IMG/VR virus record: IMGVR_UViG_3300014613_000012
Span: 1-41,062 of that record
DNA length: 41,062 bases
Direction: 5' to 3' (one strand)
From: a virus
Lineage: Duplodnaviria > Caudoviricetes
Positions 12,101-40,813 of this stretch are shown in pieces. Position 1 is the stretch's first letter. Each line of letters starts with the position of its first letter. The notes under the pieces were generated by a model, which worked only from the letters and a program-made list of their open reading frames with translations, did not search any database and was not told the origin of the DNA. The position numbers and the translations under genes were made by a program.

Positions 12101-12286
12101 TCACTTTTTGGCACGCTTTTTGAGTATCGCCGCAGCTTCTTTCATGCCGTCTTTAGTTATAAGCCATTTACCAGCGACATAATCAGCATCGATATCGTTG
12201 TTTTCTGCAAGTCGGCGCATAGTGTAGCGTGACACTCCGAGCTTTTCCCCTGCTTCTACTGTCGTAAATACTTTCGTAAGCCTCAT
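12101..12286 (-). CDS. Excisionase-like HTH DNA-binding protein
   Basis: FTTVEAGEKLGVSRYTMRR...GKWLI (HTH_17/MerR-like). Confidence 0.8.
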   Translation of the reverse strand: MRLTKVFTTVEAGEKLGVSRYTMRRLAENNDIDADYVAGKWLITKDGMKEAAAILKKRAKK

Positions 12287-13590
12287 TTCGCTGCCTCCTT
12301 CTCCAGGCTATCGCAGAATTTTGCGATGTAGTTGATGCTCTCCTGAAATTTCGTCGGATTGTTATCAAGTACCCTCTGCATGTAGTCGATAGCCTTCCGG
12401 TAGTCGCGCTTGTATTTGGCCTCGATCAGGCTTTTGAAGTAATAACACTCTTCGAAGTCGTTGCGCTCTGTTAATATCTGATCGAACCATCGCTCTGACA
12501 TTTTGATGTTATTGCCGAAATAGCCAACTTTATCCGGAGTATTCTCGTCCCACTGGAAATACAGCTTTGCGAGCTGGCTCTTGATCTTCAAGCTGTTCGG
12601 GCATGCTTCCAAGCCTCTTTCCAGCACGCTCCGTCCAAGTTTGAACTCCTTCAAGTTAACCTTGTCCATGCTCCAGAATACCCAACAGTCAGGAAACGCC
12701 GGATACATCTCAAGAGCCTCTTCGTGCTTCTTCTCATAAAACAACTTGATAGCCTTCTGCTGCCGCTCCATGATGTCGATGATCTCTAGATAGTTTTCAC
12801 GCTCGATCTCGTCGGACTTCTCGCACTTCTGCAATAGCACCGTGTAGCCATACATCAGCGTGTCAAGTTTAACGATCTTAAATCCGGTGCGCTTCAACAA
12901 GTTATTAAAAGACTTCTCCGAGAATACGTTAATGTGATTCAGATGATAGTGATGCTCGAAGCTCTCCACCATCTGCAAGCTCGTCTCATCAAGCACATCG
13001 AACCATATCGGCACGCTGAGATAAATATACCCATCATCCGTGAGCAAGTCACGCATTTTTTCAAGCTCCAGCTCCGGAGCCTGCATGTGCTCAAGTACAT
13101 GATAGCAGCTTATAAGATCATATTTCTTCGGCCATTCAGGCTGTATTTCATAATCAACATTCAGCCCGTAATAGTGCTTTGCGAACGACACCAGGGCCCT
13201 GCCCCATTCTGTACCGTACAGATTATCTGTCGGAACTCCATAACGCTGAAAACAGTCCTCAAGCCATCCGCCCTGGGCACATCCTATATCTAGTATAGTC
13301 ATATCTGGATTAACGACGTCTTTCAGAAACTGATGATGATAGCAGTTTTTCCGATTGCTCGTTATGACGTTGTTGAAGCTGACTACATTCCGATCTGTCG
13401 TGTAGTGGTCCTTTAGTGCTCCTTCTGGCCTGTACTGGTAGTTAACATAGCCGCAATACTGGCAGATGCGAAAGCCGATAATTGCGTCAACGTCGATGTA
13501 TTCACGATCAAGCCAATATTCAAGATCACGCATTTTATCAAGATCGTGCCAGTTTTCACTTCCGCAAATCGAGCATTTTTCCATTTTCAT
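12283..13590 (-). CDS. Class I SAM methyltransferase with N-terminal Zn-binding region and C-terminal TPR-like region
   Basis: CSICGS/CQYCG, ILDIGCAQG, YDLI..YHVLEH, helical C-terminus; type common in glycan loci. Confidence 0.85.
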   Translation of the reverse strand: MKMEKCSICGSENWHDLDKMRDLEYWLDREYIDVDAIIGFRICQYCGYVNYQYRPEGALKDHYTTDRNVVSFNNVITSNRKNCYHHQFLKDVVNPDMTILDIGCAQGGWLEDCFQRYGVPTDNLYGTEWGRALVSFAKHYYGLNVDYEIQPEWPKKYDLISCYHVLEHMQAPELELEKMRDLLTDDGYIYLSVPIWFDVLDETSLQMVESFEHHYHLNHINVFSEKSFNNLLKRTGFKIVKLDTLMYGYTVLLQKCEKSDEIERENYLEIIDIMERQQKAIKLFYEKKHEEALEMYPAFPDCWVFWSMDKVNLKEFKLGRSVLERGLEACPNSLKIKSQLAKLYFQWDENTPDKVGYFGNNIKMSERWFDQILTERNDFEECYYFKSLIEAKYKRDYRKAIDYMQRVLDNNPTKFQESINYIAKFCDSLEKEAAK

Positions 13591-14291
13591 TTCCCCAGTA
13601 TTATTTTCAATTCATCGACAGAAAGCATGTGATTCTGATCCGTTTCCGTTTTCCCGTCAATCGTACATTCGAACATAAAGTGTTTCACGCCTATCGCCTT
13701 GAAAGCCTCGTAAGTGTCCGCGATGTAGTCCTTGACTCCCACGCTGTGCGAGCAGTCCACCACAAGCCGATCAAATATCTCTGGCCGCGAGTGCTTGATG
13801 CGGATACATCCCTTCAAGTCTGGACTCCAGCGGCTCCACATCTGCCTGTCAATATCAGATATGCCGCGCTCTACTATGTACACATCCAAGCAATGAACTG
13901 ACTTCGCAATGTCATAAATCCCGCACAGCTCGTCAACAGTCATGCTAGAGCCTCGCTTGATCAGTAGCGGCCTCGCGTACCCGCTGATATCGCTCAGTAG
14001 CCCATAGTTTTGAGAATTGCGTGCGCCAATCCACAAATACGATAGCTCTTTACAATAATAGAATTGATTAGAAGTTTGTATCTCCGTACCTGTAGGAAGT
14101 ATCGCATTGCAGTCATGTAGTGTGTTAAGTCCTTCAACTCCTACGCCAGGATTGTAGCGATCAAGCATCGTACCACCGCCGTATATTTTACAGCGGAACT
14201 TATCGGCCACACCAACAAGAGCCTTCGCAGTCTCTAGTATCGAGTCGTGCTGCTTCGAGTGTGTATATAGGCAGGGCCCTGCGTAAATCAT
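13587..14291 (-). CDS. DAHP synthase I-beta / KDO8P synthase family PEP-utilising aldolase (divergent)
   Basis: AGPC, IGARNSQN, LIKRG, ERG, VDCSHS. Start more likely the ATG at 14291 (MIYAGPC). The KPRT/KANRS motif is absent. Confidence 0.8.
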   Translation of the reverse strand: MIYAGPCLYTHSKQHDSILETAKALVGVADKFRCKIYGGGTMLDRYNPGVGVEGLNTLHDCNAILPTGTEIQTSNQFYYCKELSYLWIGARNSQNYGLLSDISGYARPLLIKRGSSMTVDELCGIYDIAKSVHCLDVYIVERGISDIDRQMWSRWSPDLKGCIRIKHSRPEIFDRLVVDCSHSVGVKDYIADTYEAFKAIGVKHFMFECTIDGKTETDQNHMLSVDELKIILGK

Positions 14292-14452
14292 ATCTCTATC
14301 CTCTCCCCGCACTTCTCGCAAATGATCTTTATCGGAACGTTTGTGTCATCAGGGCTGAAGTTGTTTGACGATATAACTAGAGCCATCGGCCCTATATCGC
14401 TGATATCGTTATACGTTCCGCATTTCGTGCATTTAACAACATCGACAGACAT
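14288..14452 (-). CDS. 54-aa zinc-ribbon protein
   Basis: Not in the track. MSVDVVKCTKCG...ICEKCGERIEI, translationally coupled at both ends. Confidence 0.7.
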   Translation of the reverse strand: MSVDVVKCTKCGTYNDISDIGPMALVISSNNFSPDDTNVPIKIICEKCGERIEI

Positions 14453-14721
14453 TAGTAATACATCCTTTTATGCTGTGAGAATAGCCAAGCATGGAAATCC
14501 GCGGTGTCCTTTTTCTTGATGAATCCGCGCCGCTGCATCTCGGCCCAAATCTTAGTTTGTTTTCGTTCCAAGTCAAGTATATTTACCCACGGTATCTTGT
14601 CGGACTTAAATGATATCTCCTTGTACAGATCAGCCGCTAGACGTTTCAGGGCCCCGTTGGACATTACTCCAAGCTGGAGCGCGAATGCCTCTTGACTGAT
14701 TGTATACAAGTTTTGTGCCAT
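14452..14721 (-). CDS. Hypothetical protein
   Basis: 89 aa, TAATG-coupled within the sugar cluster. Confidence 0.65.
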   Translation of the reverse strand: MAQNLYTISQEAFALQLGVMSNGALKRLAADLYKEISFKSDKIPWVNILDLERKQTKIWAEMQRRGFIKKKDTADFHAWLFSQHKRMYY

Positions 14722-15722
14722 TACATATTATAATAATACGACTTATGCCAATTCCAGTATTCTGATATCGCCTCGATAAGCGGCGTGACAGATATCTCCC
14801 TGCCAGTGTATTCCTCTATTTTGGTATTGTCGGATACTAGACCAATAACATCGCCATCCTGCATTTCTGCATTTACGGTAATTGCTTTTTTCCCTATAAC
14901 GCTCTCTATTGTCTCGACAAATTCAGTAAGCCATATTTTCCGCGATGATCCTATATTGTAAACTTCGCTTCTTGTTGAGATGTCTTTTGAATATACATCG
15001 ATAAAACTCTTAAAGACATCAATAAGATCATAAATATATGTGAAGTCACGAAACATCATACCATTATTGTTTATTGTTATTTGCTCACCGTTATATATAG
15101 CATCACAAAAATGATGCAGTGCCATATCAGGACGACCAAACGGACCAAATGCCGTGAAGAATCGTAGTCCAGCCGATGACATATTATACATATTGCCATA
15201 TACATTAGCGCACAATTCGTCGAACTTCTTCGTTGCTGCATATAGACTTACAGGAGTATCCGTCCTGTCTGTTTCTGATGATAAACTGTTTTGTGTAGCT
15301 CCATATACTGACGAGCTACTGGCATATATAATTTTTTTAATGCCGAACTCGCGGCACATTTCCAGAATGTTTACGAATCCAGTTACGTTTGAATCTATAT
15401 AAGCATCCTGATTTATCTTTGAGTATCTCACGCCAGCCTGCGCTGCGAGGTGTATCACCATGTCTATATTATTCCAAGCAAATATTTTTTCAAGACCAGT
15501 CCTGCTTTCTATCGATTCCTTATAAAACTTAACATTATAATCATTAACATCATACAGACCAGTAGAAATATCAAATCCTATTTTTTGGAGTCTCGCATTC
15601 TTAATTCTTACATCATAATAATCGTTTAGATTGTCAATACACACAACACTATTGTCCCTTTTGAGAGCTTCCACCAAATGGAAACCGATAAATCCTGCTG
15701 CTCCAGTTATTAGTATGTTCAT
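14721..15722 (-). CDS. NAD-dependent nucleotide-sugar epimerase (UDP-glucuronate 4-epimerase-like)
   Basis: ITGAAGFIG, HLAAQAGVRYS, YASSSSVYG, YAATKK, GRPDMA, RDFTYI. Confidence 0.93.
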   Translation of the reverse strand: MNILITGAAGFIGFHLVEALKRDNSVVCIDNLNDYYDVRIKNARLQKIGFDISTGLYDVNDYNVKFYKESIESRTGLEKIFAWNNIDMVIHLAAQAGVRYSKINQDAYIDSNVTGFVNILEMCREFGIKKIIYASSSSVYGATQNSLSSETDRTDTPVSLYAATKKFDELCANVYGNMYNMSSAGLRFFTAFGPFGRPDMALHHFCDAIYNGEQITINNNGMMFRDFTYIYDLIDVFKSFIDVYSKDISTRSEVYNIGSSRKIWLTEFVETIESVIGKKAITVNAEMQDGDVIGLVSDNTKIEEYTGREISVTPLIEAISEYWNWHKSYYYNM

Positions 15723-17050
15723 GTTTTCACCGCGCCACTATTGCAAGGATGATCTGATTGCGCCGTCTTTTGGCTGTCATGATGCCTGTATTTCCACAAA
15801 GGCTTTTCAACAAACGCCACTTTGTAATTCTTGCGGAACGACTCCCAGAACGGAGGACCGTCAAGATATTTCACATCTTCCTTGTATCCGATCTCGTTTA
15901 CGCACCATTTGGATATCAAGCAAGACGCCGGATGCCATCTATTTTCTAGCACTTCGCCGGTGGCCTTCATGTCCTCGTCAGCGTCATAATATCCAGATAA
16001 TACCGCCTGCGCGTTCTCTATGTCAAGCGTCTCTATCATAGTTTCGACTGCTTCCGGTAGAAGCACATCGTCGCTGTCAAGACGCATAATATATCTACCG
16101 CGTGCGTGCTTCAGTGCTCTATTGCTAGACGCCGACAGACCGATATTCCTGTCGTTTCTCAGCACTTTTACACGCTTCCTCGTCGGCTCCGGTAGAGTAG
16201 TGTACCACTCCATTATCACGTTCATAGAGTCGTCAGTCGATTTGTCGTCTATGACTATGTATTCGATATCCCCGAACGTCTGCGCTATCACGCTATCTAT
16301 GCACTCTCGGATGTACTTACTTGTATTGTAATTGCAAGTGTATATTGTCACCTGCGGAAGATGATTGATCTGCAGAAAGTACTTGTGATTCTTCAGAAAG
16401 TTAACAATATCAAGCGTGCCGATTGGCTCCGACAGCGAGACGTGAAGCAGGCGCAGAAGAGTCAAGTCCTCCTCGTAATCCATCGTCAGGCGGTAGCTGA
16501 ACTTGTATTCATACGGCGGGAAATACTCTTTGTAAATGAATTTATCGTTTTTCAGGTAATAGCTTACAAACTCTACCGGCGTAGAGCCAACTTTCTCAAT
16601 CACCTTTTTTAAGGCAGATACTTTTATCACTTCGCCTGCGATGCCTTCAGGACACTGCTTCATATAAGTGTAATCGAGCCCGCCGCGGATATGGAACTTG
16701 ATCTGATTCCGCATCAACGTCTGATCGATCAGGATGTCGTCGGCTGTGATCCTGACGACGTGCTGGAAGTCGTTGTCTACAGCGCAGTGATACAAGCGAT
16801 GCAGCGGACTGTCATCATAGCCGCGGTACACATCGACGCCCTTGTCAATGGCGATCTGCTCCAGGATGTCGTTTTCCTTGCTTTCAGGTATGGCCAAGAT
16901 GACTTGATATTTGTTGTCGTCCGCGATGACGTGATCAAGCAGGATCTCGATTGCATACCGATTCTTGATCCTGGCGAGCACCTTTTCGGGAAGTCGCGTT
17001 GACTTCACCCGCGCCGTAACGATAATTCCGCATCTGTCCATCATGCCCAT
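15719..17050 (-). CDS. SpsF-like cytidylyltransferase fused to a GT2 glycosyltransferase
   Basis: N-terminal ARVKSTRLPEKVL, VVRITAD, RLTMDYEED; C-terminal YN..KYI..CIDSV..QT, IDDKSTD, RLDSDD. Confidence 0.9.
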   Translation of the reverse strand: MGMMDRCGIIVTARVKSTRLPEKVLARIKNRYAIEILLDHVIADDNKYQVILAIPESKENDILEQIAIDKGVDVYRGYDDSPLHRLYHCAVDNDFQHVVRITADDILIDQTLMRNQIKFHIRGGLDYTYMKQCPEGIAGEVIKVSALKKVIEKVGSTPVEFVSYYLKNDKFIYKEYFPPYEYKFSYRLTMDYEEDLTLLRLLHVSLSEPIGTLDIVNFLKNHKYFLQINHLPQVTIYTCNYNTSKYIRECIDSVIAQTFGDIEYIVIDDKSTDDSMNVIMEWYTTLPEPTRKRVKVLRNDRNIGLSASSNRALKHARGRYIMRLDSDDVLLPEAVETMIETLDIENAQAVLSGYYDADEDMKATGEVLENRWHPASCLISKWCVNEIGYKEDVKYLDGPPFWESFRKNYKVAFVEKPLWKYRHHDSQKTAQSDHPCNSGAVKT

Positions 17051-17922
17051 ATATCCGCGCTAGTGCAATTTCGGCAAGTCTCCGGCATGTCGATGTCATA
17101 TATACGCCTGAGCTCATGCCGTTTCCCCCACGACACATAGCCTTTAATGCCGATCTGGATGTCCTCAGGCTCGTTATAACATACGCAGCAAGGATATACT
17201 TTCCCGTTGGCTAGATGCGTCACGCGACGATTCATGTGCGGACACATCTTTTTCCGCTTCCTGCGCTTCGGAGTATTCGAAATGTCAGAGCCTTCGCGCC
17301 GCTCGGTATATCGTTCAACAATCTTGAACTCAGGATAATGCTTTTTGAAAACAGCAAAATCATCATCCCAATTCAATGCGTTCTTGTGGAAATTGAGACG
17401 GACCCGCGCTTTCAGCTTGTTAAATCGTTTCAACTGATGCAGGTATGCGATATTTGACCGCATGCGATAGAACTGATCCGGAGTAGATCCGTGAAGCCTC
17501 TGGTATGTCCCAACGTCTGACGCATCCACGCTGACAATAATCGTGTCAATACCGGCGTCTAGTATCTCGTCAAGAAGCTGCGGGACCATCGTCAGATTAG
17601 TGTTTATCATTACGTCAATATAGCCAAGCTGTTTAGCCAGCTTGATCGCCGGAATAAGAGTTACCGCAAGCGCAGGCTCGCCGCGAAGATTGAATTTCAC
17701 GGATTTGGCAGTCTTAGAGAAATACCATAGAATGCGCTCTACATCTTCCCACGGCATTTGAGCGATCTCGAACTTGCGCTCTTCCGGCTTACTGTGCCAG
17801 CAAGATACACACGCCTGATTGCAGTTATTGTTTAGCTCGATGTCAATATGTATCGGGAGATCGTACCGGAGGAATCCGCGAAACCACCACTGAAGGCGGT
17901 AGATGTAATATTTATAATCCAT
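17041..17922 (-). CDS. Radical SAM / SPASM(twitch) protein
   Basis: CNQACVSC, RGEP, NTN, and C-terminal C...G.VYPCC...CRNC. Confidence 0.9.
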   Translation of the reverse strand: MDYKYYIYRLQWWFRGFLRYDLPIHIDIELNNNCNQACVSCWHSKPEERKFEIAQMPWEDVERILWYFSKTAKSVKFNLRGEPALAVTLIPAIKLAKQLGYIDVMINTNLTMVPQLLDEILDAGIDTIIVSVDASDVGTYQRLHGSTPDQFYRMRSNIAYLHQLKRFNKLKARVRLNFHKNALNWDDDFAVFKKHYPEFKIVERYTERREGSDISNTPKRRKRKKMCPHMNRRVTHLANGKVYPCCVCYNEPEDIQIGIKGYVSWGKRHELRRIYDIDMPETCRNCTSADIWA

Positions 17923-18799: not shown

Positions 18800-18828
18800 A
18801 ATATATGTATTTTTATGTTAATCGTCAA
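18800..18828 (-). promoter_or_regulatory. sigma70-like promoter
   Basis: TTGACG-17bp-TATATT; ATTAACATAAA occurs twice around it (possible operator). Confidence 0.7.
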
Positions 18829-19443: not shown

Positions 19444-19668
19444 TCATCTCTCCACCTCCCCGGTGATGCGATCTAAAATGCAACGGATAACATACTTAGT
19501 CGCAACTGGATTGAATGGATTATTCACCACTCGTCCAAGATTCTCTGCTATATCCTCCCGCTCGCGGAGAAGCGGCTCGATGTCGGAGTGCAAACAATAT
19601 TTTCCCAGCCATACCTCCTCCATTCCGCGAGGACACGTTCGCAAGCAATCATACCGCTGTATCTTCAT
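19444..19668 (-). CDS. Hypothetical protein
   Basis: Probable start MKIQRY after GGAGGGGAG; contains GKYCLHSD. Confidence 0.6.
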   Translation of the reverse strand: MKIQRYDCLRTCPRGMEEVWLGKYCLHSDIEPLLREREDIAENLGRVVNNPFNPVATKYVIRCILDRITGEVER

Positions 19669-19715
19669 CTCCCCTCCTTCGCCCTCCGCGCTGAGTGGGC
19701 GCGATATCTGTAATA

Positions 19716-19741
19716 AGTTTCGCATATAACCTGTTAGCGGA
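19716..19741 (+). repeat. Array-initial half site (attI-like or truncated attC)
   Basis: tttcgcatataacct-GTTAGCG; shares tttcgcatat with the right arm of attC1; no partner arm found upstream. Confidence 0.5.
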
Positions 19742-20015
19742 AATGCTCGCTTAATCTTTTCAATTTATTTTCAATTTTTTTTAACTCTGATATAACATAT
19801 TCATCATCACTATCTCCGGCAATGTTTGCCATAAATAAACTTGTATATTGGCTAATTAAGTTTTCAATATCAATCCGCACATCCGCTAACAGCGAATATG
19901 CGTTCGCCTCCGGCAAATTGCGAGGCTCATAGTGTGTGCACCCGCACCCATTCACGCGCTCGCCAAATACAACGTGCCTACATACTACCTTGTGCATACA
20001 GTCAAAACAGTCCAC
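19734..20015 (-). CDS. Cassette 1 hypothetical protein
   Basis: GTG start with GAGGAGG RBS inside attC1; stop TAA lies within the GTTAGCG core. Confidence 0.7.
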   Translation of the reverse strand: MDCFDCMHKVVCRHVVFGERVNGCGCTHYEPRNLPEANAYSLLADVRIDIENLISQYTSLFMANIAGDSDDEYVISELKKIENKLKRLSEHFR

Positions 20016-20058
20016 CGTTTACCTCCTCGCAATTTCGCATATCCGCAATCTGTTGTAC
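19884..20058 (+). repeat. attC-like site 1 (175 bp)
   Basis: CGCTAAC agcgaatatgcg...aaattgcgagg [loop] cctcgcaattt cgcatatccgc aatct GTTGTAC. Confidence 0.75.
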
Positions 20059-20070
20059 GCCATGCCGAGC

Positions 20071-20235
20071 CTATCGGCGGCGGCCATCCGTGGCCGCCCG
20101 TTGCATAAAAATATCCAAAAACTCTTTTTCTGGATTTCCCTCGTACAATATATCATAGTCAACATATCCATGTTCAATAAGGTACTCATTGTATTTAATC
20201 AATATTGCCCAAATATATTGTTTGTCCTTTTGCAT
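20071..20235 (-). CDS. Cassette 2, 54-aa hypothetical protein
   Basis: Not in the track. MQKDKQYIWAIL...AATDGRRR. Confidence 0.55.
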   Translation of the reverse strand: MQKDKQYIWAILIKYNEYLIEHGYVDYDILYEGNPEKEFLDIFMQRAATDGRRR

Positions 20236-20238
20236 GAT

Positions 20239-20892
20239 TTACCCCCACTGTTCAGACATAGCCGATGCGATACCATGATACGCTTTTGGGTATGAACATT
20301 CACTGTATTTTAAATTATTCATAACCTCTTTTTTATAATTCTTATCCCCGACAATAAATAAATATCTGTGTTTTCTCGGTCTATCAAGTAAATAAAAATC
20401 ATCCCCGTATTTATCCCGCATTGCCCGTGCCCTGTTTTCACATCCTCTGAACTCATCCGCTATGGTCTGCCCGTGTAAATGTTCTTTCCCTTTTATTTTC
20501 CAATCTGTTCTTTTCGCCGAGAGTCCTGTATAAATAAAATTTGTTGCTTGATAAACATATCCAACATGATTTTGGCTACTATCTGCAAAAGACACAATTA
20601 TTTTATTTTTTGGTAACATTTTTAAACTATTCCCGACAAGAAAACTTGCTTCATTTTTCCTATTGTATTTTAAGCAGAGTCTATTTAATTCTAAAATATC
20701 AGAAATAAACCTATCTCCGGCAATTCCCCTTCTAAGTGGGGCACTTGCCGGTGTTCCATAAGTTACAACACCACACAGTTCATTATCAACAAATAATCCA
20801 AACGCATAAGATATTGACGGCCATCTTTTAGCATAGTGCAACTCTAAAATATATTCGCTGCAATCAATCCTATTTATTTTTTTTACCATCAT
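20239..20892 (-). CDS. mom: Mom-family (GNAT-like) DNA adenine modification protein
   Basis: HYAKR, GVVTYG.P, LELNRL, NEASFL, VSFADS.Q.HVG.VYQATNFIYTG. Start more likely 20892 or 20889 than 20985. Confidence 0.85.
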   Translation of the reverse strand: MMVKKINRIDCSEYILELHYAKRWPSISYAFGLFVDNELCGVVTYGTPASAPLRRGIAGDRFISDILELNRLCLKYNRKNEASFLVGNSLKMLPKNKIIVSFADSSQNHVGYVYQATNFIYTGLSAKRTDWKIKGKEHLHGQTIADEFRGCENRARAMRDKYGDDFYLLDRPRKHRYLFIVGDKNYKKEVMNNLKYSECSYPKAYHGIASAMSEQWG

Positions 20893-20927
20893 TAAACTAT
20901 CCTCTGCGCTTCGGTACGTCCTGTACC

Positions 20928-21086
20928 TCACATACACCACACATAAGCACCAATCAATATAAACTCTACCGCCATTAGAACACATATTGCAAGATAGAAC
21001 ACACGGCTTTCATGAACGGCATCCGCGATATATGCAAGAAGCATTATCAATGGAATCGTCAATATTAACTTGCCAAGTATTTCCAC
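20928..21086 (-). CDS. Cassette 2, 52-aa two-TM membrane protein
   Basis: Not in the track. GTG start, MEILGKLILTIPLIMLLAYIAD...FILIGAYVWCM; bracketed by a ~30-bp direct repeat. Confidence 0.55.
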   Translation of the reverse strand: MEILGKLILTIPLIMLLAYIADAVHESRVFYLAICVLMAVEFILIGAYVWCM

Positions 21087-21159
21087 AACCAGCCCCCCTC
21101 TACGCTTCGGTACATCCGTGTACCTCGCTAAAACAATCTATTGCTACACTCGGCACGGC

Positions 21160-21214
21160 GCACAACAACCGCTATACGCCATTTCACGGCGCATAGCTTG
21201 TAATGCTGTTAGCG
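21160..21214 (+). repeat. attC-like site 2 (55 bp)
   Basis: GCACAAC aacc gctatacgcc atttcac ggcgcatagc ttgtaatgct GTTAGCG. Confidence 0.8.
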
Positions 21215-21460
21215 GAAATACCGCCTAAACTTTTTGAATTTATTACCCGTCCTCGGATCGTATCCTCTAAAATAATCCACACATACGCACTGTTCGCACT
21301 CAAAATCAGGACTATATTTGCATACGTAATCACCATGCCATTGATCTCTGTAACTGCCGCACGGCGGTACTTCCGCTAACACGGCGTAAACGACAGCCGA
21401 CCTTATTTTAGACCATAGACTTTGTTTCTTAACCGCGACTATTTCATGAAATAAATTCAT
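21209..21460 (-). CDS. Cassette 3 Cys-rich hypothetical protein
   Basis: AGGAGG RBS and ATG inside the attC3 loop; stop in the GTTAGCG core. Confidence 0.7.
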   Translation of the reverse strand: MNLFHEIVAVKKQSLWSKIRSAVVYAVLAEVPPCGSYRDQWHGDYVCKYSPDFECEQCVCVDYFRGYDPRTGNKFKKFRRYFR

Positions 21461-21501
21461 ATTTCCTCCTTCGGCCTACGCCTACGCCATGACTGTTATA
21501 T
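21374..21501 (+). repeat. attC-like site 3 (128 bp)
   Basis: CGCTAAC ac ggcgtaaacg acagccga [loop] tcggcct acgcctacgcc atgact GTTATAT. Confidence 0.75.
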
Positions 21502-21515
21502 GCAATGCCGCTCAT

Positions 21516-21719
21516 CTATTGGCACGAAATGCCAGTGTCCTTATAGTGTGACCCAGAGAACATCCTGCCACAATGCACTGGCCGAACACAAGACGAATCA
21601 ACCTTTATCCCGCCATTATACACTTCGCAGATGGTCTTATTGCATCCAGACGCGGCACAGCATATAACAGCGCATACGCAAAACCGCACCAAAGACTTCG
21701 ACAATCTATTTGACTTCAT
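21516..21719 (-). CDS. Cassette 4 Cys-rich protein, possible lipoprotein
   Basis: GGAGG RBS; hydrophobic N-terminus ending ASGC; reads through the attC4 left arm. Confidence 0.55.
   Translation of the reverse strand: MKSNRLSKSLVRFCVCAVICCAASGCNKTICEVYNGGIKVDSSCVRPVHCGRMFSGSHYKDTGISCQ
21662..21690 (+). repeat. attC-like site 4, left arm only
   Basis: ATATAAC agcgcatacgc... complements the cassette start GTTATAT; right arm not found. Confidence 0.6.
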
Positions 21720-21740
21720 GATACTACCTCCGCAATTATT

Positions 21741-21962
21741 TTATTGCCGCACGTCATCCCGCGTCTCGATCTTCTCGCGCCATATCGCCTGACGATAGCA
21801 CTCCACTACATGCTCATCGGGAGCAAGATACACTGTAGTAATTGCCTTCTGTAGCTCCATCTCTTCTTCGAGCTCATAGACACGCCCGTTTAGACGCATC
21901 ACCATTATCGTCGTTGCTATCGCCCATGCCGCAAGTCCGAAATACGCCAGCCGTTTAATCAT
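21741..21962 (-). CDS. Membrane-anchored hypothetical protein
   Basis: N-terminal hydrophobic helix then coiled coil. Confidence 0.6.
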   Translation of the reverse strand: MIKRLAYFGLAAWAIATTIMVMRLNGRVYELEEEMELQKAITTVYLAPDEHVVECYRQAIWREKIETRDDVRQ

Positions 21963-22680: not shown

Positions 22681-22709
22681 ACTATATTTATTTTATTGTT
22701 ATGCGTCAA
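22681..22709 (-). promoter_or_regulatory. sigma70-like promoter facing ninB and the cassette array
   Basis: TTGACG-17bp-TATAGT. Confidence 0.75.
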
Positions 22710-29775: not shown

Positions 29776-30195
29776 TTAACGAATTGCGCCAGTCGCGGCC
29801 AATATTCCAACAACTCCGATGGCCGCCACTGCTCCACCGAAATAGAATTTCCAGTTTCCGCCTTCACCGACTTCAATAGTCATGTCGCGGCTCCAACTAC
29901 GATCACACAGGCCAGCACCTATGCGGTACGTCCCAACGTCTAGCTGCTCCATCTCAAGCCGCGGCTCTGACGTGTCGTAGCACTTCAGCTTGTCTATGCA
30001 CTGCGGCAGAGACACCGTTGGATAATTCCGATATACTATATCAGTTTGGATCTTCGTTTTCCACTTGACTACAGGCTCTTCGCGGAAACAATAATAGTGA
30101 GTTCCAAATCCTGCGAAGTACACCAGGACGAGGACCAACAGCGAGACGGCAATTTTATAAAACATATTCCTCACGCATCCTGTCAAGATATTCAC
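29776..30195 (-). CDS. Membrane protein in the lysis module (spanin-like)
   Basis: N- and C-terminal hydrophobic segments; last gene of the lysis cluster. Confidence 0.5.
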   Translation of the reverse strand: MNILTGCVRNMFYKIAVSLLVLVLVYFAGFGTHYYCFREEPVVKWKTKIQTDIVYRNYPTVSLPQCIDKLKCYDTSEPRLEMEQLDVGTYRIGAGLCDRSWSRDMTIEVGEGGNWKFYFGGAVAAIGVVGILAATGAIR

Positions 30196-30350
30196 TCGCG
30201 CTTGTTACCGAAGAAAATACACCGTTTCCTATAACTGCTCCATTATATAATACATTGCAATAGTAATACCCGTCTGTTCGCTTCTCGAACTTGAATTGAT
30301 ACATCTTATATCTCCCAACACGACAAGAGCGCGACTGAACGAATACTATA

Positions 30351-30575
30351 TCACTGCTTGTTTGTGACGACATTTTGTATGGCCTTGCCTGTGACACCAG
30401 TGCCAATAAGCATTCCAGCGAGTCCGATGATTCCCGTCAAGTCCTTATTGTACATCCACCAAGCGACGAATCCAGCTATCGAGATGCCGATCCCTACGAC
30501 GATCAGCATCATGGACTGGATCCTCGTCGTGGACACTTCCGAGCTATCCGAGAAAAGTTTTCCGAGCCAATTCAT
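30351..30575 (-). CDS. Putative holin
   Basis: Two TM helices, SSEVSTTR...GKAIQ; adjacent to the endolysin. Confidence 0.65.
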   Translation of the reverse strand: MNWLGKLFSDSSEVSTTRIQSMMLIVVGIGISIAGFVAWWMYNKDLTGIIGLAGMLIGTGVTGKAIQNVVTNKQ

Positions 30576-31096
30576 ATTATCACACCGTAGCAACTCCCGT
30601 ATATTCTCTCGCTCTCTATCATCGAAGCAGGATACAAGACGCAATGCCCTGACTCGCGGCTTCTGTCCTTCTGCGCTTGCTTGCGATCTCCCGCGGGATC
30701 ATTGAAGATATATCCGCCGCTTTCGTATCCAATCATTATCTGATAGTGTCCATCTTTATGATACAATATCACCGCGCCCTTGTCAAGATATAATTTCATC
30801 TCTTCGAGCTCCGACTTCATCGGCACGCGAGCCCGCGGCCATGCAGGCTTCGTGATGCGATTGCAATCATACCCGTTCTCTTCCAGGTACTTGACAAGAT
30901 TCTCTTCGTATTGGAACTCGTCGCCCTTCCCGTAACGCTCGAAGAAGTCCTGCAATACCTCGTTAACATCCTGATCAGTTATCATGGCGACACAAGACAC
31001 GTTACACGTCCGTTTCCGCTCGTCCTTCGCCGTCTCCGGCAGATCAGTCACGTCATAGTACTGATTGACATATCTCGGCGTGTCATTGATCGGCAT
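30572..31096 (-). CDS. Peptidase C39-like protein, probable endolysin
   Basis: NQ...TCNVSCVAM, GHYQIMIGY, FNDPAG give a Cys-His-Asp triad. Confidence 0.75.
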   Translation of the reverse strand: MPINDTPRYVNQYYDVTDLPETAKDERKRTCNVSCVAMITDQDVNEVLQDFFERYGKGDEFQYEENLVKYLEENGYDCNRITKPAWPRARVPMKSELEEMKLYLDKGAVILYHKDGHYQIMIGYESGGYIFNDPAGDRKQAQKDRSRESGHCVLYPASMIESERIYGSCYGVII

Positions 31097-31227
31097 CGCG
31101 CTCCTCCAGGTATTCAATAGTCATTTTCGCCAGCTTCCAGATGTTCGTACAGTCGTGTATGTACTTTGTCGACTCTTCGTTTCCGACATCATAAAACTTA
31201 TAAATGTCGCAAAATAGCTCACGCGCT

Positions 31228-31410
31228 CTATCTCTTGACATTCTCCGCCTGCGCCTTTGCCGATGTTCGAATCTTCTGCTTCTCACAGTGTAGCGGCCCG
31301 ATGGCAAACTTAAATCCGCTCATCGCCAAGCCTATCGTCAGGATAACGACACAGCTATGACGCCAGTTATCCAACAACAGCTTCGCAAGTTTAACGATCC
31401 ATTTATCCAC
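31228..31410 (-). CDS. Small membrane protein
   Basis: 60 aa with one TM segment. Confidence 0.55.
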   Translation of the reverse strand: MDKWIVKLAKLLLDNWRHSCVVILTIGLAMSGFKFAIGPLHCEKQKIRTSAKAQAENVKR

Positions 31411-31618
31411 GATTCCTATTTTTAGACGTTATCACGTCATGCGCTCCCTGCAATTTGTCCAACTGCTTCGATATCTCGTCGATCTTCTTCCACTGCTGGC
31501 GGTCAGAAAACTTCAACTGTTTTATAACAAATACTGCAAAACTTGTAATGAGAGCGACAGCAACATTAACCCAGAAGCCAACACTAGAGAGTAAATCGCC
31601 ATGCGGTAGAGTCTGCAA
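31403..31618 (-). CDS. TM plus coiled-coil protein (holin/XhlA-like)
   Basis: N-terminal TM, then ...LDKLQG. Confidence 0.6.
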   Translation of the reverse strand: MQTLPHGDLLSSVGFWVNVAVALITSFAVFVIKQLKFSDRQQWKKIDEISKQLDKLQGAHDVITSKNRNRG

Positions 31619-31639
31619 ATCATATACCTATCCTCCCGT

Positions 31640-31960
31640 TTACTTTATGAGTTGAGCACGCAGAGCCGCGGCCTGCTCGTTCAATAATTTAAGAGAATCT
31701 TTCGCTTTCTGCTTATCCGTCGCTGTCACATTATCGTCTCCGATTTCAGCACACGGACGTATCCGCTTTTTGTCCAATGTTTCAAGCTGCAACAATATCG
31801 AGTCGTTAAATATTTTCTTATCAAGAGCATCATCCTTTGCCCATTTACCTGACGACCAGAAGAACGGAACGCCAGGACGCTCGGAAACTTCAACGTCCTT
31901 TGAGTTTACTCTCTGTCCTGAATAATAACTATTGTTAACATGAGATATATAATGCTTCAT
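31640..31960 (-). CDS. Tail fibre assembly-like protein
   Basis: RPG...W..GKW..D, LD.KRIRP, LRAQL; follows the fibre gene. Confidence 0.6.
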   Translation of the reverse strand: MKHYISHVNNSYYSGQRVNSKDVEVSERPGVPFFWSSGKWAKDDALDKKIFNDSILLQLETLDKKRIRPCAEIGDDNVTATDKQKAKDSLKLLNEQAAALRAQLIK

Positions 31961-33444
31961 TAGAAAAACCTCTCTGCCTGCATTATAACATTCCACTTGT
32001 TGTCTGTGATTAGTGCGTGCGACCCAGTCCCAGTACCATATCCCATATAAGTTCCGCCAGCACCTTTGACTGAGAATATTTCTGTCCTGGTGTATCCGAG
32101 GCCAAGACCAGAAACACCACCACCATAATACTCCGCGGGGTGAGACTTTTCTCCTACATCGTATCCGACATCAGTATCAATGCAAATATACCACTTTTCA
32201 GCCGTTATCTTGTCAGTGCCGATGTTATGGCTAACCGACAGCCTAGTTCCTGCCGCCTGGAGTGTTGACTGAGACATCATGTAAAGACCGTTGATCGCAT
32301 ACGTTTTTATGGCAGATATAGCTGGAACTGCGGTAATAGATGCTTCTCCTATCGGTAGCAACATAGACGCCGTGTATGCTGTCCCGGTACACCAATAGCC
32401 AACCATCTCAGGTATAACAAACGCATAATGTCCAAGAGCTCCAGCACTAGCGGCTGGAAGCACATACACACAAGTGGGCATTACGGATGATTGTGTCTGT
32501 CCCCACGTTGTCGTTGATCCATCATACGCCACAAATAAATATTTCGTTGTCGCGGAACCGATACCTGAGAAATCCCAAGACGCCGGAGTCGTGTTCGTTG
32601 TTATTGCATATACATAGTCGAGCGATCCAGTAGAATTATATCCATTTGCAATTGTCATAATACAAGTTGCTGTTGCAACGATTGATATGCTAGTGCCTGT
32701 CGCAACTAAGAACGCTGCTTTCCCCTCCGAATCGACAGTACCAGATATTACAGTATGACGCTTTTGAATGTGTGCTTGAGCTGACACAGATCCGACAACG
32801 GCGGTATCGACATACGTTTTTACTGCTTTTTGGCTCGGCACTTTAATGTCTGACGTTCCAAGCGCAACATTAGTGTCAACTATGCCAAGTGTGAATCTGC
32901 TCGATGTAACGCTCTGATCAGCATACAAGGCCCCATTCATCTTGAAACTTCCAAGAATCGCCTTCGTAGATGATGGCGAAGAATCGAGAAAAAAGTCGTC
33001 ACCAGATAGATACATGTCCTTAGCAGTATAGTGATATGATACCGCGGCAGTTTTATGCGTCCGCGAGTCGCTTGTCAGCGTCTGCATGTACATGGCCACA
33101 GCCCATATCTGACGATTGTCGTTCCACCCGGCAGGAAGCGTAACAGATGACTGTGTATCCCACGACACTATACGAGACGCTCCGGCTGTGTTGACTGATA
33201 GCGCGGCCCCGGCGTTGATGTTAATCGCTCCCGCGCCGTCTCCAGTTACCGAGCCGCCGTACAATATCCAAGCCGTAGTTGTCGGATTGTTCGACAGAAA
33301 GCGGATCGCCTCGCATACTTTGTCCTGATAATAGTTGTGATCAGTCTGCGCGTCAGTTACTTTGTAGTAGTCACGATCAGCGTCCGGGGAATACCCGGCT
33401 ACCTCAGTATCCCCGAATATGTTTGTAAACTTTTGAGTGCTCAT
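31960..33444 (-). CDS. Tail fibre / receptor-binding protein
   Basis: 494 aa, T/S/G-rich, SDIKVPSQKAVKTYVD fibre motif, HNIG C-terminal domain. Confidence 0.75.
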   Translation of the reverse strand: MSTQKFTNIFGDTEVAGYSPDADRDYYKVTDAQTDHNYYQDKVCEAIRFLSNNPTTTAWILYGGSVTGDGAGAININAGAALSVNTAGASRIVSWDTQSSVTLPAGWNDNRQIWAVAMYMQTLTSDSRTHKTAAVSYHYTAKDMYLSGDDFFLDSSPSSTKAILGSFKMNGALYADQSVTSSRFTLGIVDTNVALGTSDIKVPSQKAVKTYVDTAVVGSVSAQAHIQKRHTVISGTVDSEGKAAFLVATGTSISIVATATCIMTIANGYNSTGSLDYVYAITTNTTPASWDFSGIGSATTKYLFVAYDGSTTTWGQTQSSVMPTCVYVLPAASAGALGHYAFVIPEMVGYWCTGTAYTASMLLPIGEASITAVPAISAIKTYAINGLYMMSQSTLQAAGTRLSVSHNIGTDKITAEKWYICIDTDVGYDVGEKSHPAEYYGGGVSGLGLGYTRTEIFSVKGAGGTYMGYGTGTGSHALITDNKWNVIMQAERFF

Positions 33445-33779
33445 AGTTTGCCCTCTTTCTTAAGCGAGTCAATAGCCATCTGGCGGATACGTTCGTTTAT
33501 TAGTTTTTCCTCTGATTCCTTCTTCGCTTTCGCTTCAAGTTTCGGCCTCATAGCTGCTGCACGTTTCTTGTTTTTCTCGATATATTTCTTAGATGGCTTT
33601 TTCAGCAACTTTATTATAGTTCCGTTGGATTTTTCTATGACTGCATGCTCGCCTATATCGTCAGTCAACGTAAAACGCTTTTCCACAAGACGCCGTGACT
33701 TGTTGCCCTTCTTGTCATCTGATACTTCATAGTACCACAATATATCGTTTTTAAGCTCTTTCTCGATTGTCGGCTTCAT
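33441..33779 (-). CDS. Basic hypothetical protein, possibly a fibre chaperone
   Basis: Ends EKLINERIRQMAIDSLKKEGKL. Confidence 0.55.
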   Translation of the reverse strand: MKPTIEKELKNDILWYYEVSDDKKGNKSRRLVEKRFTLTDDIGEHAVIEKSNGTIIKLLKKPSKKYIEKNKKRAAAMRPKLEAKAKKESEEKLINERIRQMAIDSLKKEGKL

Positions 33780-33781
33780 AT

Positions 33782-34501
33782 CTACCTCTTCGCCCATATC
33801 TCTACATGCCCGCGAGTAAATTCACCAGTTGTCGTATCACAATAGAATTGTATAGTTGTTAATGTATCTGATGTTGTCGTATTCATAACTGCCCCGAACT
33901 TTCTATGTATATACTGAGATCCATTAGTCGATCCCTGCAATTCTCCAGTTTCAAGTACAGCCATTTTATTATAGCCTGTTTTAGAAAACAAAGATATCCT
34001 TGAGTGAATAACAGCAGTTCCAGTTTCGATTGTGCCGATATTCGCCACATATATCCCAGATCCGGTATAGTTGAATACTGATACTGCGAGTGCATCTACG
34101 ACATAACCCCTAGAATAATAAGCTATTTCTGAATTGCTATTTAGCGACATCAACAAATATGTGTCAGCCGCTGGTGAAGAAAACTCAAAATCTGCTAGTA
34201 TCATATAATGATCGTCAACATCTCCATTTAGCCCAAACAGCTCTATACGAGAAACTGGCGTTGATACATCAACAGTCGATATGCGCTGCCATGATCCAGT
34301 CAAAGATCCGATGATCGTAAGATTGTTCGCATATATACTTTTCCATCGATATGTTCCGGATCCTAGATCGTAAACGCTAGTTGTGGCTTCTAGAGACACA
34401 CCGCCACGCGGTAATAAATCATCCTGCCCATAGTGATAGTAGTTATCATTAAACTCTGACGATGATATTGTGTCACCAGTTGCAAATACAGTAAACGGCA
34501 T
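33782..34501 (-). CDS. Tail tip/fibre paralog 3
   Basis: Shares NDNY, PRGGVSL, YDLGS..RW..IY, LNGD and DT.T.I.F with the next two genes. Confidence 0.7.
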   Translation of the reverse strand: MPFTVFATGDTISSSEFNDNYYHYGQDDLLPRGGVSLEATTSVYDLGSGTYRWKSIYANNLTIIGSLTGSWQRISTVDVSTPVSRIELFGLNGDVDDHYMILADFEFSSPAADTYLLMSLNSNSEIAYYSRGYVVDALAVSVFNYTGSGIYVANIGTIETGTAVIHSRISLFSKTGYNKMAVLETGELQGSTNGSQYIHRKFGAVMNTTTSDTLTTIQFYCDTTTGEFTRGHVEIWAKR

Positions 34502-35218
34502 TTACATCCTCCACAATTTTACAACCGTACCAGGATCGAATGCTCTAATAGTTCCGTCTGATTCGTGCATAATAAACTTTATGCTAGTGATTGTGTCGGC
34601 TGAGTTTTTCCACGTTGAATGCATGTAGTTTGTTGACTCAACCATTGTATTGCCGCAAACATTATTGGCGAATAGCCCCCTATATGTTCCTGCCTTTGTA
34701 AATATATACATGTCAGTTCTAGATAAATACGATGCCGTTGTCGTTCCGTTCAGAAACGATATTACAGTAGAAGTTCTTGACGTTGTTACCGTGTGCGTAG
34801 TCCCGATTACATTATGAACGCTATAATTTGATGCAGAATCACCATTTAATATCATGGACACATAATTACACGAACTTGTATTGGGAATAAACTCAGCGGT
34901 ACAATATATGCAAAAATAGTCATCCCCATTAAGACCTGTAAACTCTATCGATGTAGCCGTTGTCGTTAGTGTTACTCCGTCTATGTATGATATAATATCC
35001 GCAGTTATAAGACTTCCTGCCACATTAACATTATTGCAATATATATTGTCCCAACGGAATGCGGCCGATCCCATATCGGCGGTGTTGTCGGAATATTCAA
35101 GCAATCCTGAAGAACTAGCCGACATTGGCAATATAGACCCTTGCCCGACGTAAGTGAAATTGTCGTTTACGTCCGAGGCCAATGCAGTTTGGCTATTTTC
35201 CAAATTATGAAACGACAT
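34502..35218 (-). CDS. Tail tip/fibre paralog 2
   Basis: NDNF, DMGSAAFRWDNIYCN, LNGDS, DTITSIKF. Confidence 0.7.
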   Translation of the reverse strand: MSFHNLENSQTALASDVNDNFTYVGQGSILPMSASSSGLLEYSDNTADMGSAAFRWDNIYCNNVNVAGSLITADIISYIDGVTLTTTATSIEFTGLNGDDYFCIYCTAEFIPNTSSCNYVSMILNGDSASNYSVHNVIGTTHTVTTSRTSTVISFLNGTTTASYLSRTDMYIFTKAGTYRGLFANNVCGNTMVESTNYMHSTWKNSADTITSIKFIMHESDGTIRAFDPGTVVKLWRM

Positions 35219-35949
35219 TACTTAGCCCATATCCGTATTGTTGAGTTCGGATCGATACTTCTCTCTGTTCCGGCGTCATTCGTAAACATGAATTTTAACG
35301 ACGTAATAGTGTCAGTGCCATAATATGAAAAACTTCCAGTTATATTTGTTGTCACTATTCCAGTAGCCGTGTTCGATATCCTGTTATAATATCCTTTATA
35401 TGCGGTAGCGGTGCTTTTTGTCGGCATCATCATATAGACATATGTGTTCCTTGCATCGCTGACGGTGTTTGTGTTCCCGATCTCTATATAGTTTGCATTT
35501 GATACAAGGTCCTGTGTTAATGCCGTTGCTGATGCAGCGTCAATATAAATAGACTTCATTTGTATCCGAGCGTATGAAGAAGATGAATCTCCGTTAAATA
35601 TCATTCTGATAACAGCAGTAGACGTAGCGTGAATAAAATGACATAGAACAATCATATTATCATAATCGTCTCCGCTGACAGTCATCTCAACTGAAGTGGC
35701 CGTTGACGACAAAGTAACTTCTGTTTGTAACTGCCATATGTCACCAACAACAATTCCAGCCAAGTCTAGAGTATTGCAATATATATTATTCCACTTGAAT
35801 GCTGCTGACCCTATGTCATACGTCGAATCTGCTGAAGTAAGCGACACGCCACCACGCGGCATCCTGTCACCATCGGAGATGTGATAGAAATTATCCATCA
35901 CCTCGTTCGCATATGCCACTGTGCCGGATGTAAATATCGTAAACGCCAT
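35218..35949 (-). CDS. Tail tip/fibre paralog 1
   Basis: MDNFY, PRGGVSL, DIGSAAFKWNNIYCN, FNGDS, DTITSLKF. Confidence 0.7.
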   Translation of the reverse strand: MAFTIFTSGTVAYANEVMDNFYHISDGDRMPRGGVSLTSADSTYDIGSAAFKWNNIYCNTLDLAGIVVGDIWQLQTEVTLSSTATSVEMTVSGDDYDNMIVLCHFIHATSTAVIRMIFNGDSSSSYARIQMKSIYIDAASATALTQDLVSNANYIEIGNTNTVSDARNTYVYMMMPTKSTATAYKGYYNRISNTATGIVTTNITGSFSYYGTDTITSLKFMFTNDAGTERSIDPNSTIRIWAK

Positions 35950-37290: not shown

Positions 37291-38075
37291 TACCTGGGCG
37301 TCTCCCGCAGCTTCATCACGCCTTTGTAGCCAACGTCAGTATAATTATTAGCCGCCGGCTGATCGAACGTATACTCGCCTATCCAGTTGACCTCATACAA
37401 TTGACCGTCCCATGATGTCCCTGTCGGAAACGGGACAAAAACAAACTCGGTATCCTCGTCGTACAGATCGAGTAATAGAGACGTTTCACTCGCCGTAACA
37501 TAGCTCAAACTAATATCTGCATAATAGCTCGTATCAAGAACGTATTGGCTCCAGCCGCCGTTCGCCATTTCGTGAACGTATTCCTTTCGCTTGCGTTTGA
37601 CTTTATAGTCCTTCGCCGTTGGATTGTTTTCGAACTGAAGATAACGTTTCCCTATGTATATGTCGCCGCACTTCTTCTCTTCGTTGGCCACCATCGTCGC
37701 GGTGATGTCGAAGAATACGCTCTGCACAGCTGTAGTTGCGAAGTAAATATAAAGACTCGTTTCGCTGTTCGTGGCCCAAACGGTAGTATTCGTTAACATG
37801 CTTGTCGGCGTAATTACATTCGCCGCGTTGCTGTTGTAATATATGATGAAGCTCTTCCAATTGCAGTTCTGAATTGCGATGTGATCGATGTTTTCCGTGT
37901 CCGTGAAGTCGATGCGTATTGATGTCGTCGTCAAATCACTGTTATCACCTGCGCTCTGGAATTGATAGTCTGGCTTGCGATCTATCAAATACACCACGTT
38001 CGACGTGCCGTTGTTGACGGATATCAACGTCGTAGTGTTCACGAAATTCTTGTATAAGCATTCCATTCTGCTCAT
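37290..38075 (-). CDS. Distal tail protein (putative)
   Basis: Immediately after tape measure; ends ...MKLRE. Confidence 0.65.
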   Translation of the reverse strand: MSRMECLYKNFVNTTTLISVNNGTSNVVYLIDRKPDYQFQSAGDNSDLTTTSIRIDFTDTENIDHIAIQNCNWKSFIIYYNSNAANVITPTSMLTNTTVWATNSETSLYIYFATTAVQSVFFDITATMVANEEKKCGDIYIGKRYLQFENNPTAKDYKVKRKRKEYVHEMANGGWSQYVLDTSYYADISLSYVTASETSLLLDLYDEDTEFVFVPFPTGTSWDGQLYEVNWIGEYTFDQPAANNYTDVGYKGVMKLRETPR

Positions 38076-40801: not shown

Positions 40802-40813
40802 TGTGATTCTCCT

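What the first reader, a model, noticed from the sequence alone, without database searches (positions are those of the whole stretch)
19734..21719. Cassette genes run antisense and initiate inside their own attC loop
Seen: for C1 and C3 the RBS and start codon lie inside the attC (20015, 21460). The ORF reads through the left arm (AYSLLADVR, VYAVLAEVP) and stops at the TAA inside the cassette-initial GTTAG core (19734, 21209). The C4 gene also reads through its arm (VCAVICCAA). The recombination site is therefore also coding sequence and translation start. Established: canonical cassettes carry the ORF upstream of attC on the top strand. Inference: arm asymmetry makes + the top strand, so these are phage-adapted cassettes transcribed from the phage promoter at 22681-22709. 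Recombination could swap whole genes or N-terminal leaders.
Basis: partly seen in the sequence, partly recalled or inferred. Interest (0 to 1): 0.72.

Follow-up and report, generated by a model that had tools for sequence, protein, structure and literature searches.

The report
Backward-coded swappable phage gene cassettes
This phage carries a row of four small gene cassettes bounded by integron-like DNA hairpin sites, with the genes on the opposite strand to bacterial cassettes and two of them predicted to start inside their own hairpin; a related phage holds a homologue of one cassette among different neighbours, so the cassettes are likely swapped by a recombinase borrowed from the host.

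Summary
Confirmed, with corrections. The complete 40.9-kb phage has no recombinase but carries four cassettes (19734–~21680) whose ends are self-complementary (0 of 1000 shuffles). The sites are not textbook attC: spacers are 5 versus 9 nt and there is no bulged G. In cellular arrays of this site type the genes lie on the short-arm-first strand, so + is the top strand and the phage genes are antisense. C1 and C3 have their only SD-led start in the loop and stop on the core TAA. C3 homologues (55–76%) start at the same place. Arm changes in relatives are compensatory (4 of 12 and 2 of 26 pairs). A related phage has the same platform half-site, a different first cassette, and C1's homologue starting exactly at G|TT. 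Corrections: C4's site lacks its long arm, and C2 (Mom) does not start in its site. Ordinary crossover moves start and gene together; head swaps need the second core, and comparative breakpoints support this. Phage attC clusters are in print (Qi 2023); my eight paper searches did not find the inverted, translated layout. This scan has noted it before on other DNA (81 notes, at least 78 genomes). Recombination and translation are untested.

The parts
19666..19739 (+). Platform half-site a0 (attI-like position), ending TATAACCT|GTT with crossover at 19733/19734
   Evidence: Conserved in relative L322 up to the GTT, then a different first cassette follows
19734..20052 (+). Cassette C1 (unit from TT of one core to G of the next)
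   Evidence: Self-complementary ends 19733/19890; homology to L322 begins exactly at 19733
19734..20015 (-). C1 gene, 93 aa; Cys-rich head encoded in the loop, arm motif NLPEANAYSLLADVR, stop on the core TAA
   Evidence: six homologues at 32-40% in the alignment share the arm motif, five end HF[RS]; codon usage favours this frame
19884..20058 (+). Site a1, 175 nt, short arm first (5-nt spacer), long arm last (9-nt spacer), inner 11-bp stem that includes the C1 SD
   Evidence: two compensatory double changes against L322
20022..20026 (-). Predicted SD (GGAGG) of C1, inside a1
   Evidence: partly paired in the mRNA fold
20053..21208 (+). Cassette C2 with Mom-like gene and two small ORFs, all antisense; none starts in its site
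   Evidence: Ends 20052/21166 complementary at 16 of 20; 21088-21167 shared with L322 and ends at the AAC
20239..20892 (-). Mom-like DNA-modification gene (likely start 20892 or 20889)
   Evidence: PHROG 1384 E 1e-53, Pfam Mom E 1e-39 for the longer ORF 20239-20985; start
21160..21214 (+). Site a2, 55 nt, 6 extra bases on the long arm
21209..21495 (+). Cassette C3
   Evidence: Ends 21208/21380 complementary at 17 of 20; same borders and different neighbours in L321
21209..21460 (-). C3 gene, 83 aa, five invariant Cys; first 25 codons lie inside site a3; stop on the core TAA
   Evidence: Four homologues at 55-76% start at about the same residue; L321
21374..21501 (+). Site a3, 128 nt, 4 extra bases on the long arm; SD at 21465-21469 in the loop
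   Evidence: 4 compensatory double changes in 12 stem pairs against L321
21496..21680 (+). Cassette C4 body and short arm only (half-site 21662-21680)
   Evidence: Ends 21495/21668; left-arm matrix rank 3, no partner arm found
21516..21719 (-). C4 gene, 67 aa; its head (21694-21747) is 87% shared with the relative, where it sits on another body
   Evidence: no homologue but itself
22681..22709 (-). Candidate sigma-70 promoter upstream of the early gene run (unproven)
   Evidence: 10/12 match in an intergenic gap; scan overall near chance

Best explanation
This is an integrase-less array of integron-like gene cassettes whose genes lie antisense to the cassette polarity, with two genes predicted to start inside their own hairpin site, and the cassettes are likely inserted and excised at G|TT by a tyrosine recombinase likely supplied by the host. 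Shown: the anatomy, the polarity by comparison with cellular arrays, exact G|TT borders of shared cassettes, a fixed half-site at the array's 5' end, and double selection on the arms (pairing and reading frame). Inferred: the minus strand folds and is cut at the long-arm core, so loop, SD, start codon and gene travel as one unit. New cassettes enter at the fixed half-site, at the promoter-distal end of the minus-strand early operon. Rarer crossover at the short-arm core joins loop-encoded heads to other bodies. The enzyme is most likely the XerA/NF040815-like recombinase that heads cellular arrays of this site type, less likely a true IntI.
For: No tyrosine recombinase in the 100%-complete record. 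Four self-complementary cassette ends, 0 of 1000 shuffles. Cellular arrays: 17 of 18 array sites have 3-4 extra bases on the GTT side (one has 6), and 11 of 18 have a >=90-aa gene on that strand ending at the site. An 832-nt, 99.8% identical cassette sits in two arrays of one genome and ends 2 nt after the long-arm GTT. Phage cassettes 99-100% identical with both borders at GTT and different neighbours: L124/L271, L221/L286, L232/L280. Longest ORF antisense in 50 of 54 viral intervals against 3 of 9 cellular; 24 of the 50 start in the site and 9 stop on the core. Antisense frames born inside the site: 25 of 53 viral, 0 of 15 genome-collection sites. Relative L322/G011: same half-site, different first cassette, C1 homologue fourth in its row. 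Compensatory pairs. C3 homologues keep start, arm motif and, in 3 of 4, the end. Head-only sharing in 19 of 22 similar-site pairs, with identity falling just beyond YAAC.
Against: No excision joint in two contig sets, both possibly the source of this DNA. The sites fail canonical attC features, and the one site of this type in Qi 2023 was not recombined by IntI1. Folding z-scores are modest and do not pick the strand for a1. By a loose test, 7 of 15 cellular sites also have an antisense frame with a start codon in the loop, so a loop start alone proves little. The right-arm matrix finds only a1 and a3 in its top 14. The collection's own gene call for C1 starts later, at 19916, still inside the site. 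C4's site is incomplete, and the array may now be frozen. Pairs are not independent. Host unknown.
Confidence: 0.8

Rival explanations
1. The sites are real cassette borders but inherited and now inert; further mosaicism comes from homologous recombination between similar arms by phage recombination proteins, not from site-specific recombination.
For: No recombinase in this phage. a4 and a0 are half-sites and a2 has 6 extra bases. No excision seen. The phage encodes an exonuclease.
Against: Borders fall at G|TT even where the neighbouring arms are unrelated (window against L322; L221/L286). Pairing is kept by compensatory changes, including amino-acid-changing ones (R to Q in C1).
Confidence: 0.12
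2. The hairpins are mainly mRNA structures that control translation by hiding the SD, and the cassette look is secondary.
For: The SD is paired in mRNA folds of a1 (partly), its L322 homologue and the L321 site. The mRNA has the bottom-strand sequence.
Against: The SD of window a3 is mostly unpaired. It does not explain self-complementary cassette ends, exact borders or the same sites lying between genes in cellular arrays. It may be a side role.
Confidence: 0.05
3. Minus is the top strand and these are ordinary sense cassettes with genes that start in the preceding site.
For: All genes of the phage are on minus; canonical extrahelical bases cannot be used to fix the strand.
Against: Shared cassettes end at the long-arm GTT on plus, carrying the loop with the gene it starts. 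Cellular genes lie on the short-arm-first strand.
Confidence: 0.03

Closest known systems
Phage CALINs, clusters of attC without integrase (Qi et al. 2023, PMC9892861; read: main text to the references, first part of the supplement)
   Same: Row of attC-like sites and small genes in a phage without integrase; DNA-modification cargo (Mom here, methyltransferases there).
   Different: The paper describes typical polarity and does not report antisense genes or starts in the site. My scan of its phage P12002L finds 7 sites of this asymmetric type at 30005-40952 on the strand opposite to the annotated genes, two holding an annotated start (gp42, gp60). Its attC1, of this type, was the one of six not recombined by IntI1.
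Canonical integron cassettes (IntI, attI, attC; Nivina et al. 2016, PMC5027507, read: abstract and introduction)
   Same: AAC/GTT cores, single-strand hairpin, crossover at G|TT of the 3' core, self-complementary cassette ends, fixed site at the array's 5' end.
   Different: Spacers 5 and 9 nt instead of 5-6 each; no bulged G; two of three sites outside 57-141 nt; genes on the bottom strand; no IntI.
rAID arrays of Bacteroidales (bioRxiv 10.1101/471110; read: passages)
   Same: Gene arrays with repeated intergenic motifs behind a XerD-like, non-IntI recombinase, as seen here for Spirochaetia arrays of this site type.
   Different: rAID genes are co-directional with the recombinase and chromosomal; this array has no recombinase and antisense genes. 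I did not compare rAID motifs with these sites.
Short ORFs inside attI1/attC that aid translation (review PMC8876359; read: passages)
   Same: Translation across a recombination site, with a stop supplied by a core.
   Different: Those are short sense-strand leader peptides; here the site encodes the first 25-43 residues of the cargo protein on the opposite strand.

Membership tests
Canonical integron attC/cassette | AAC and GTT core triplets in paired inverse core and core sites | tested here: met
   All three full sites; the wider RYYY/RRRY consensus is only partly met
Canonical integron attC/cassette | Unpaired central spacer of 5-6 nt on each arm | tested here: not met
   5 against 9 nt in a1 and a3, 5 against 11 in a2
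Canonical integron attC/cassette | Extrahelical G in L'' of the bottom strand | tested here: not met
   No single-base bulge on the short arm; the extra bases are on the long arm
Canonical integron attC/cassette | Length 57-141 nt | tested here: inconclusive
   128 nt fits; 175 and 55 nt do not
Canonical integron attC/cassette | Crossover at G|TT of the 3' core | tested here: met
   By comparative borders only
Canonical integron attC/cassette | ORF on the top strand, upstream of its attC | tested here: not met
   All cassette genes are on minus while + is top
Complete integron | IntI tyrosine recombinase with the integron-specific insertion | tested here: not met
   No PF00589 match in the complete record. 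Recombinases heading cellular arrays of this type score below the TIGR02249 cut-off and skip profile positions ~180-235; one such cassette also sits in a true IntI array
Complete integron | attI site and cassette promoter | tested here: inconclusive
   Conserved half-site with variable first cassette; no top-strand cassette promoter is needed or shown
CALIN | Two or more attC-like sites close together, no integrase | tested here: met
   Three full sites in 1.6 kb, no recombinase
CALIN | Sites called by IntegronFinder or HattCI models | not testable with these tools
   Those models are not available; Rfam gave no relevant match
CALIN | Sites recombined by an integron integrase | not testable with these tools
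   Needs a bench assay; the like site P12002L_attC1 failed with IntI1 in PMC9892861
rAID | 5' XerD-like recombinase with co-directional downstream genes | tested here: not met
   No recombinase in this phage

The most novel reading that the evidence does not exclude
A phage branch of a second, non-IntI integron system. Asymmetric hairpin sites are served by a XerA-like recombinase (host-borne here, phage-borne in large Bacteroidota-like phages). Inverting the genes puts a crossover point inside the reading frame, so one machine both swaps whole genes (long-arm core) and builds new proteins by joining loop-encoded heads to unrelated bodies (short-arm core). Inversion would also keep host defence cassettes silent in the phage array, and phage cassettes silent in the host's.
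Probability: 0.4. Interest if true: 0.88.

Novelty: new variant of a known kind. Interest (0 to 1): 0.68.

Why it matters
It gives a concrete, testable mechanism for the gene-by-gene mosaicism of phage early regions, and a possible route for making new small proteins by in-frame head/body exchange. It points to a widespread class of hairpin sites and non-IntI recombinases that canonical attC rules would miss. A cultured phage with a known host (P12002L) shows the same layout, so strand choice, enzyme and start sites can be tested now.

Tried and rejected
Rfam on 18-23 kb: one chance match. BLASTN of the array and TBLASTN of C3 against 50,697 phage records: nothing useful. Mom relatives in 80 viral loci gave only 5 scattered site calls and no array. 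DUF6475 protein and C3 alignment in viral contigs: none. No RNA holder listed; contigs of two DNA runs show no joints, which says nothing about rare excision. C4: no homologue. ESM Atlas for C3: no usable hit. P0008 (897 aa, repeats) was judged a false hit and left out of the C1 alignment; P0001 is the window's own shorter call. The genome-collection pattern scan was mostly chance: 121 loci from 9 of 64 parts; with the viral loci only 34 matches had a partner arm, and that output was cut in the middle. Host: capsid hits of 24-26% in 3 of 301 genomes of G001's phylum do not name a host. L324, a Rep relative, has one site and no C1-C4 homologue. One search used a mis-numbered structure and is void; one search replaces it. 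An in-frame ATG at 19725 in a0 is absent from the relative, so it was rejected as the C0 start. Earlier findings by place, by sequence and by a narrower word set: none.

Full report
Setting. The window is a complete circular phage record (123-nt terminal repeat; 100% complete). Portal, terminase, capsid, sugar-modification and replication genes all lie on the minus strand. It encodes no tyrosine recombinase. The two runs that hold it are labelled groundwater metagenome and may be its source. The host is unknown.

Observation. On the plus strand the region reads: half-site a0 ending at G|TT 19733; C1; site a1 19884-20058; C2; site a2 21160-21214; C3; site a3 21374-21501; C4; a lone short arm 21662-21680. 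Each cassette's first bases are complementary to the bases before its AAC, as expected for units that circularise: 13, 16 and 17 of 20 for C1-C3, and 7 of 9 beyond the core for C4. Four such pairs in 2.2 kb were never reached in 1000 shuffles (mean 0.26); six more lie scattered elsewhere in the genome. A matrix from 74 left arms of other arrays ranks the four short arms 1, 3, 5 and 6 in the genome. The right-arm matrix is weaker and finds only a1 (rank 2) and a3 (rank 10) in its top 14. The minus strand folds more stably in all three sites, with modest z-scores.

Not textbook attC. By the definition in PMC5027507 (abstract and introduction) the spacers are 5-6 nt on each arm and a G is bulged on the bottom strand. 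Here the spacers are 5 and 9 nt (5 and 11 in a2) and no such G exists. The strand had to be fixed by comparison.

Which strand is top. A pattern from a1's short arm found the same asymmetric site in bacterial and archaeal genomes. In three cellular arrays read out in full, all 18 array sites have the extra bases on the GTT side; 11 have a gene of 90 aa or more on that strand ending at the site, and one has a longer antisense ORF. Two of these arrays, both from spirochaete genomes, follow a 354-357-aa recombinase closest to NF040815, below the IntI cut-off and lacking the IntI segment. In G001 an 832-nt cassette with such a site is 99.8% identical in that array and in a second array beside a true IntI (382 bits), and identity stops 2 nt after the long-arm GTT. 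So short-arm-first is top, plus is top in the window, and the genes are antisense.

Generality in phages. In 54 intervals between adjacent sites from five viral records and five further loci, the longest ORF is antisense in 50; 24 of these start within the site and 9 stop on the core TAA. In 9 cellular intervals, 6 are sense. A loose loop-start test is weak (28 of 53 viral, 7 of 15 genome-collection sites). With the demand that the frame is born inside the site it gives 25 of 53 against 0 of 15. Three cassettes are 99-100% identical between contigs with both borders at GTT and different neighbours (320, 903, 328 nt). Three of five large viral records tested carry their own 264-268-aa recombinase beside an array, with its 5' end next to the first cassette.

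This phage's own cassettes. Relative G011/L322 shares the replication initiator (56%) but few other genes. It has an array in the same neighbourhood. Its half-site matches a0 up to TATAACCT|GTT and then carries a different first cassette. A C1 homologue is its fourth cassette; DNA homology starts exactly at 19733. The 3' piece of C2 is shared and ends at the AAC, followed by a different site. A C3 homologue in L321 has the same borders and other neighbours. Arm pairing is kept by double changes: 2 of 26 pairs in a1 (one more restored, one broken) and 4 of 12 stem pairs in a3. Two of the a3 changes are silent in the Tyr-Ala codons of the coding arm and are matched in the non-coding arm. These are two-sequence comparisons.

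Are the genes real and where do they start. Four C3 homologues (55-76%) begin at about the same residue, keep five Cys, and three end at the same place. Six C1 homologues share the arm motif and five end HF[RS], the reading of the core. Phage codon usage favours the annotated frame for heads and whole genes of C1 and C3 and for C4. Only 20015 and 21460 have an SD. Translation itself is untested.

Leaders. A crossover at the long-arm core moves loop, SD, start and gene together, so it cannot swap leaders. Exchange at the short-arm core could. Of 22 pairs of sites at least 80% alike among 75 viral sites, 19 have unrelated bodies, and identity falls from 19 of 19 in TAAC to about background within some 15 bases (pairs not independent). 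P0010 and P0013 share a head like C1's and diverge just after the core; P0009 has C1's body with another head. PMC5027507 describes top-strand recombination at that core, and PMC8946536 (passages) puts it about 1000-fold rarer. Homologous recombination in the arm, or cassette birth from a stock site, would leave similar traces.

Corrections. C4 has no long arm; its head is shared at 87% with the relative on another body, so it is a terminal fusion rather than a loop start. C2's Mom gene starts well outside its site. The promoter is a plausible, unproven match.

Literature. Qi 2023 reports 17 phage CALINs and recombination of five of six sites by IntI1; it does not mention antisense or loop-starting genes. 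Its figures and Dryad file were not seen and may show them. The failed site, P12002L_attC1, is of this asymmetric type, and that cultured phage has seven such sites opposite its genes, one next to a Mom-like gene. rAID arrays are the nearest cellular parallel (passages). Also seen in passages only: PMC5737381, PMC8138268, PMC8618304, PMC8876359, bioRxiv 2022.02.06.479319. Eight searches found no paper on the inverted, translated layout; the library lacks most subscription journals. This scan's notes hold it 81 times in at least 78 genomes; these are unchecked leads, not support.

Verdict. Real feature; works like an integron cassette array, but is not a canonical integron member. New variant of a known kind. 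Confidence 0.8 in mobile antisense cassettes cut at G|TT; about 0.4 in the fuller two-core, non-IntI protein-shuffling reading. Interest 0.68.

Noticed in passing
window 20901-20921 and 21097-21117: A short hairpin plus GAGG element is repeated in front of the Mom gene and the 52-aa ORF inside C2; one copy is conserved in the matching cassette of L322.
   Followed up: partly
window 12283-17922: Sugar-modification cluster (methyltransferase, DAHP/KDO-type synthase, epimerase, cytidylyltransferase-glycosyltransferase fusion, radical SAM) plus an MptE-like gene at 1160-2188; suggests virion or DNA glycosylation.
   Followed up: no
G006, G007, G009 (L311-L315): Large Bacteroidota-like phage records encode a 264-268-aa tyrosine recombinase directly beside antisense arrays of up to 17 sites: complete phage integron-like elements.
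   Followed up: partly
G001 C3 118000-137999 and C4 1135000-1174999 (L304, L305, L308): One spirochaete genome has an IntI array and a XerA-like-recombinase array that share cassettes and mix canonical and asymmetric sites; the XerA-like enzyme has a weak HARP-like N-terminal match.
   Followed up: partly
L321 minus strand 1394-1322 and 340-268: A roughly 70-nt gene-less cassette occurs twice in one short phage-like array.
   Followed up: no
L333 (P12002L) 30005-40952: Cultured Polaribacter phage has seven asymmetric sites opposite its genes, far more than the two published; a ready test system.
   Followed up: partly
L285 1490-1569: A viral contig with this site type in ordinary sense polarity, an exception to the inverted rule.
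   Followed up: no
window 3441-3459: Isolated left-arm-like match (rank 4) inside the head-tail adaptor gene, no partner seen; probably chance.
   Followed up: no
window 18800-18828 (-): Second TTGACG-17-TATATT promoter-like site sharing its -35 with the one at 22681-22709.
   Followed up: no
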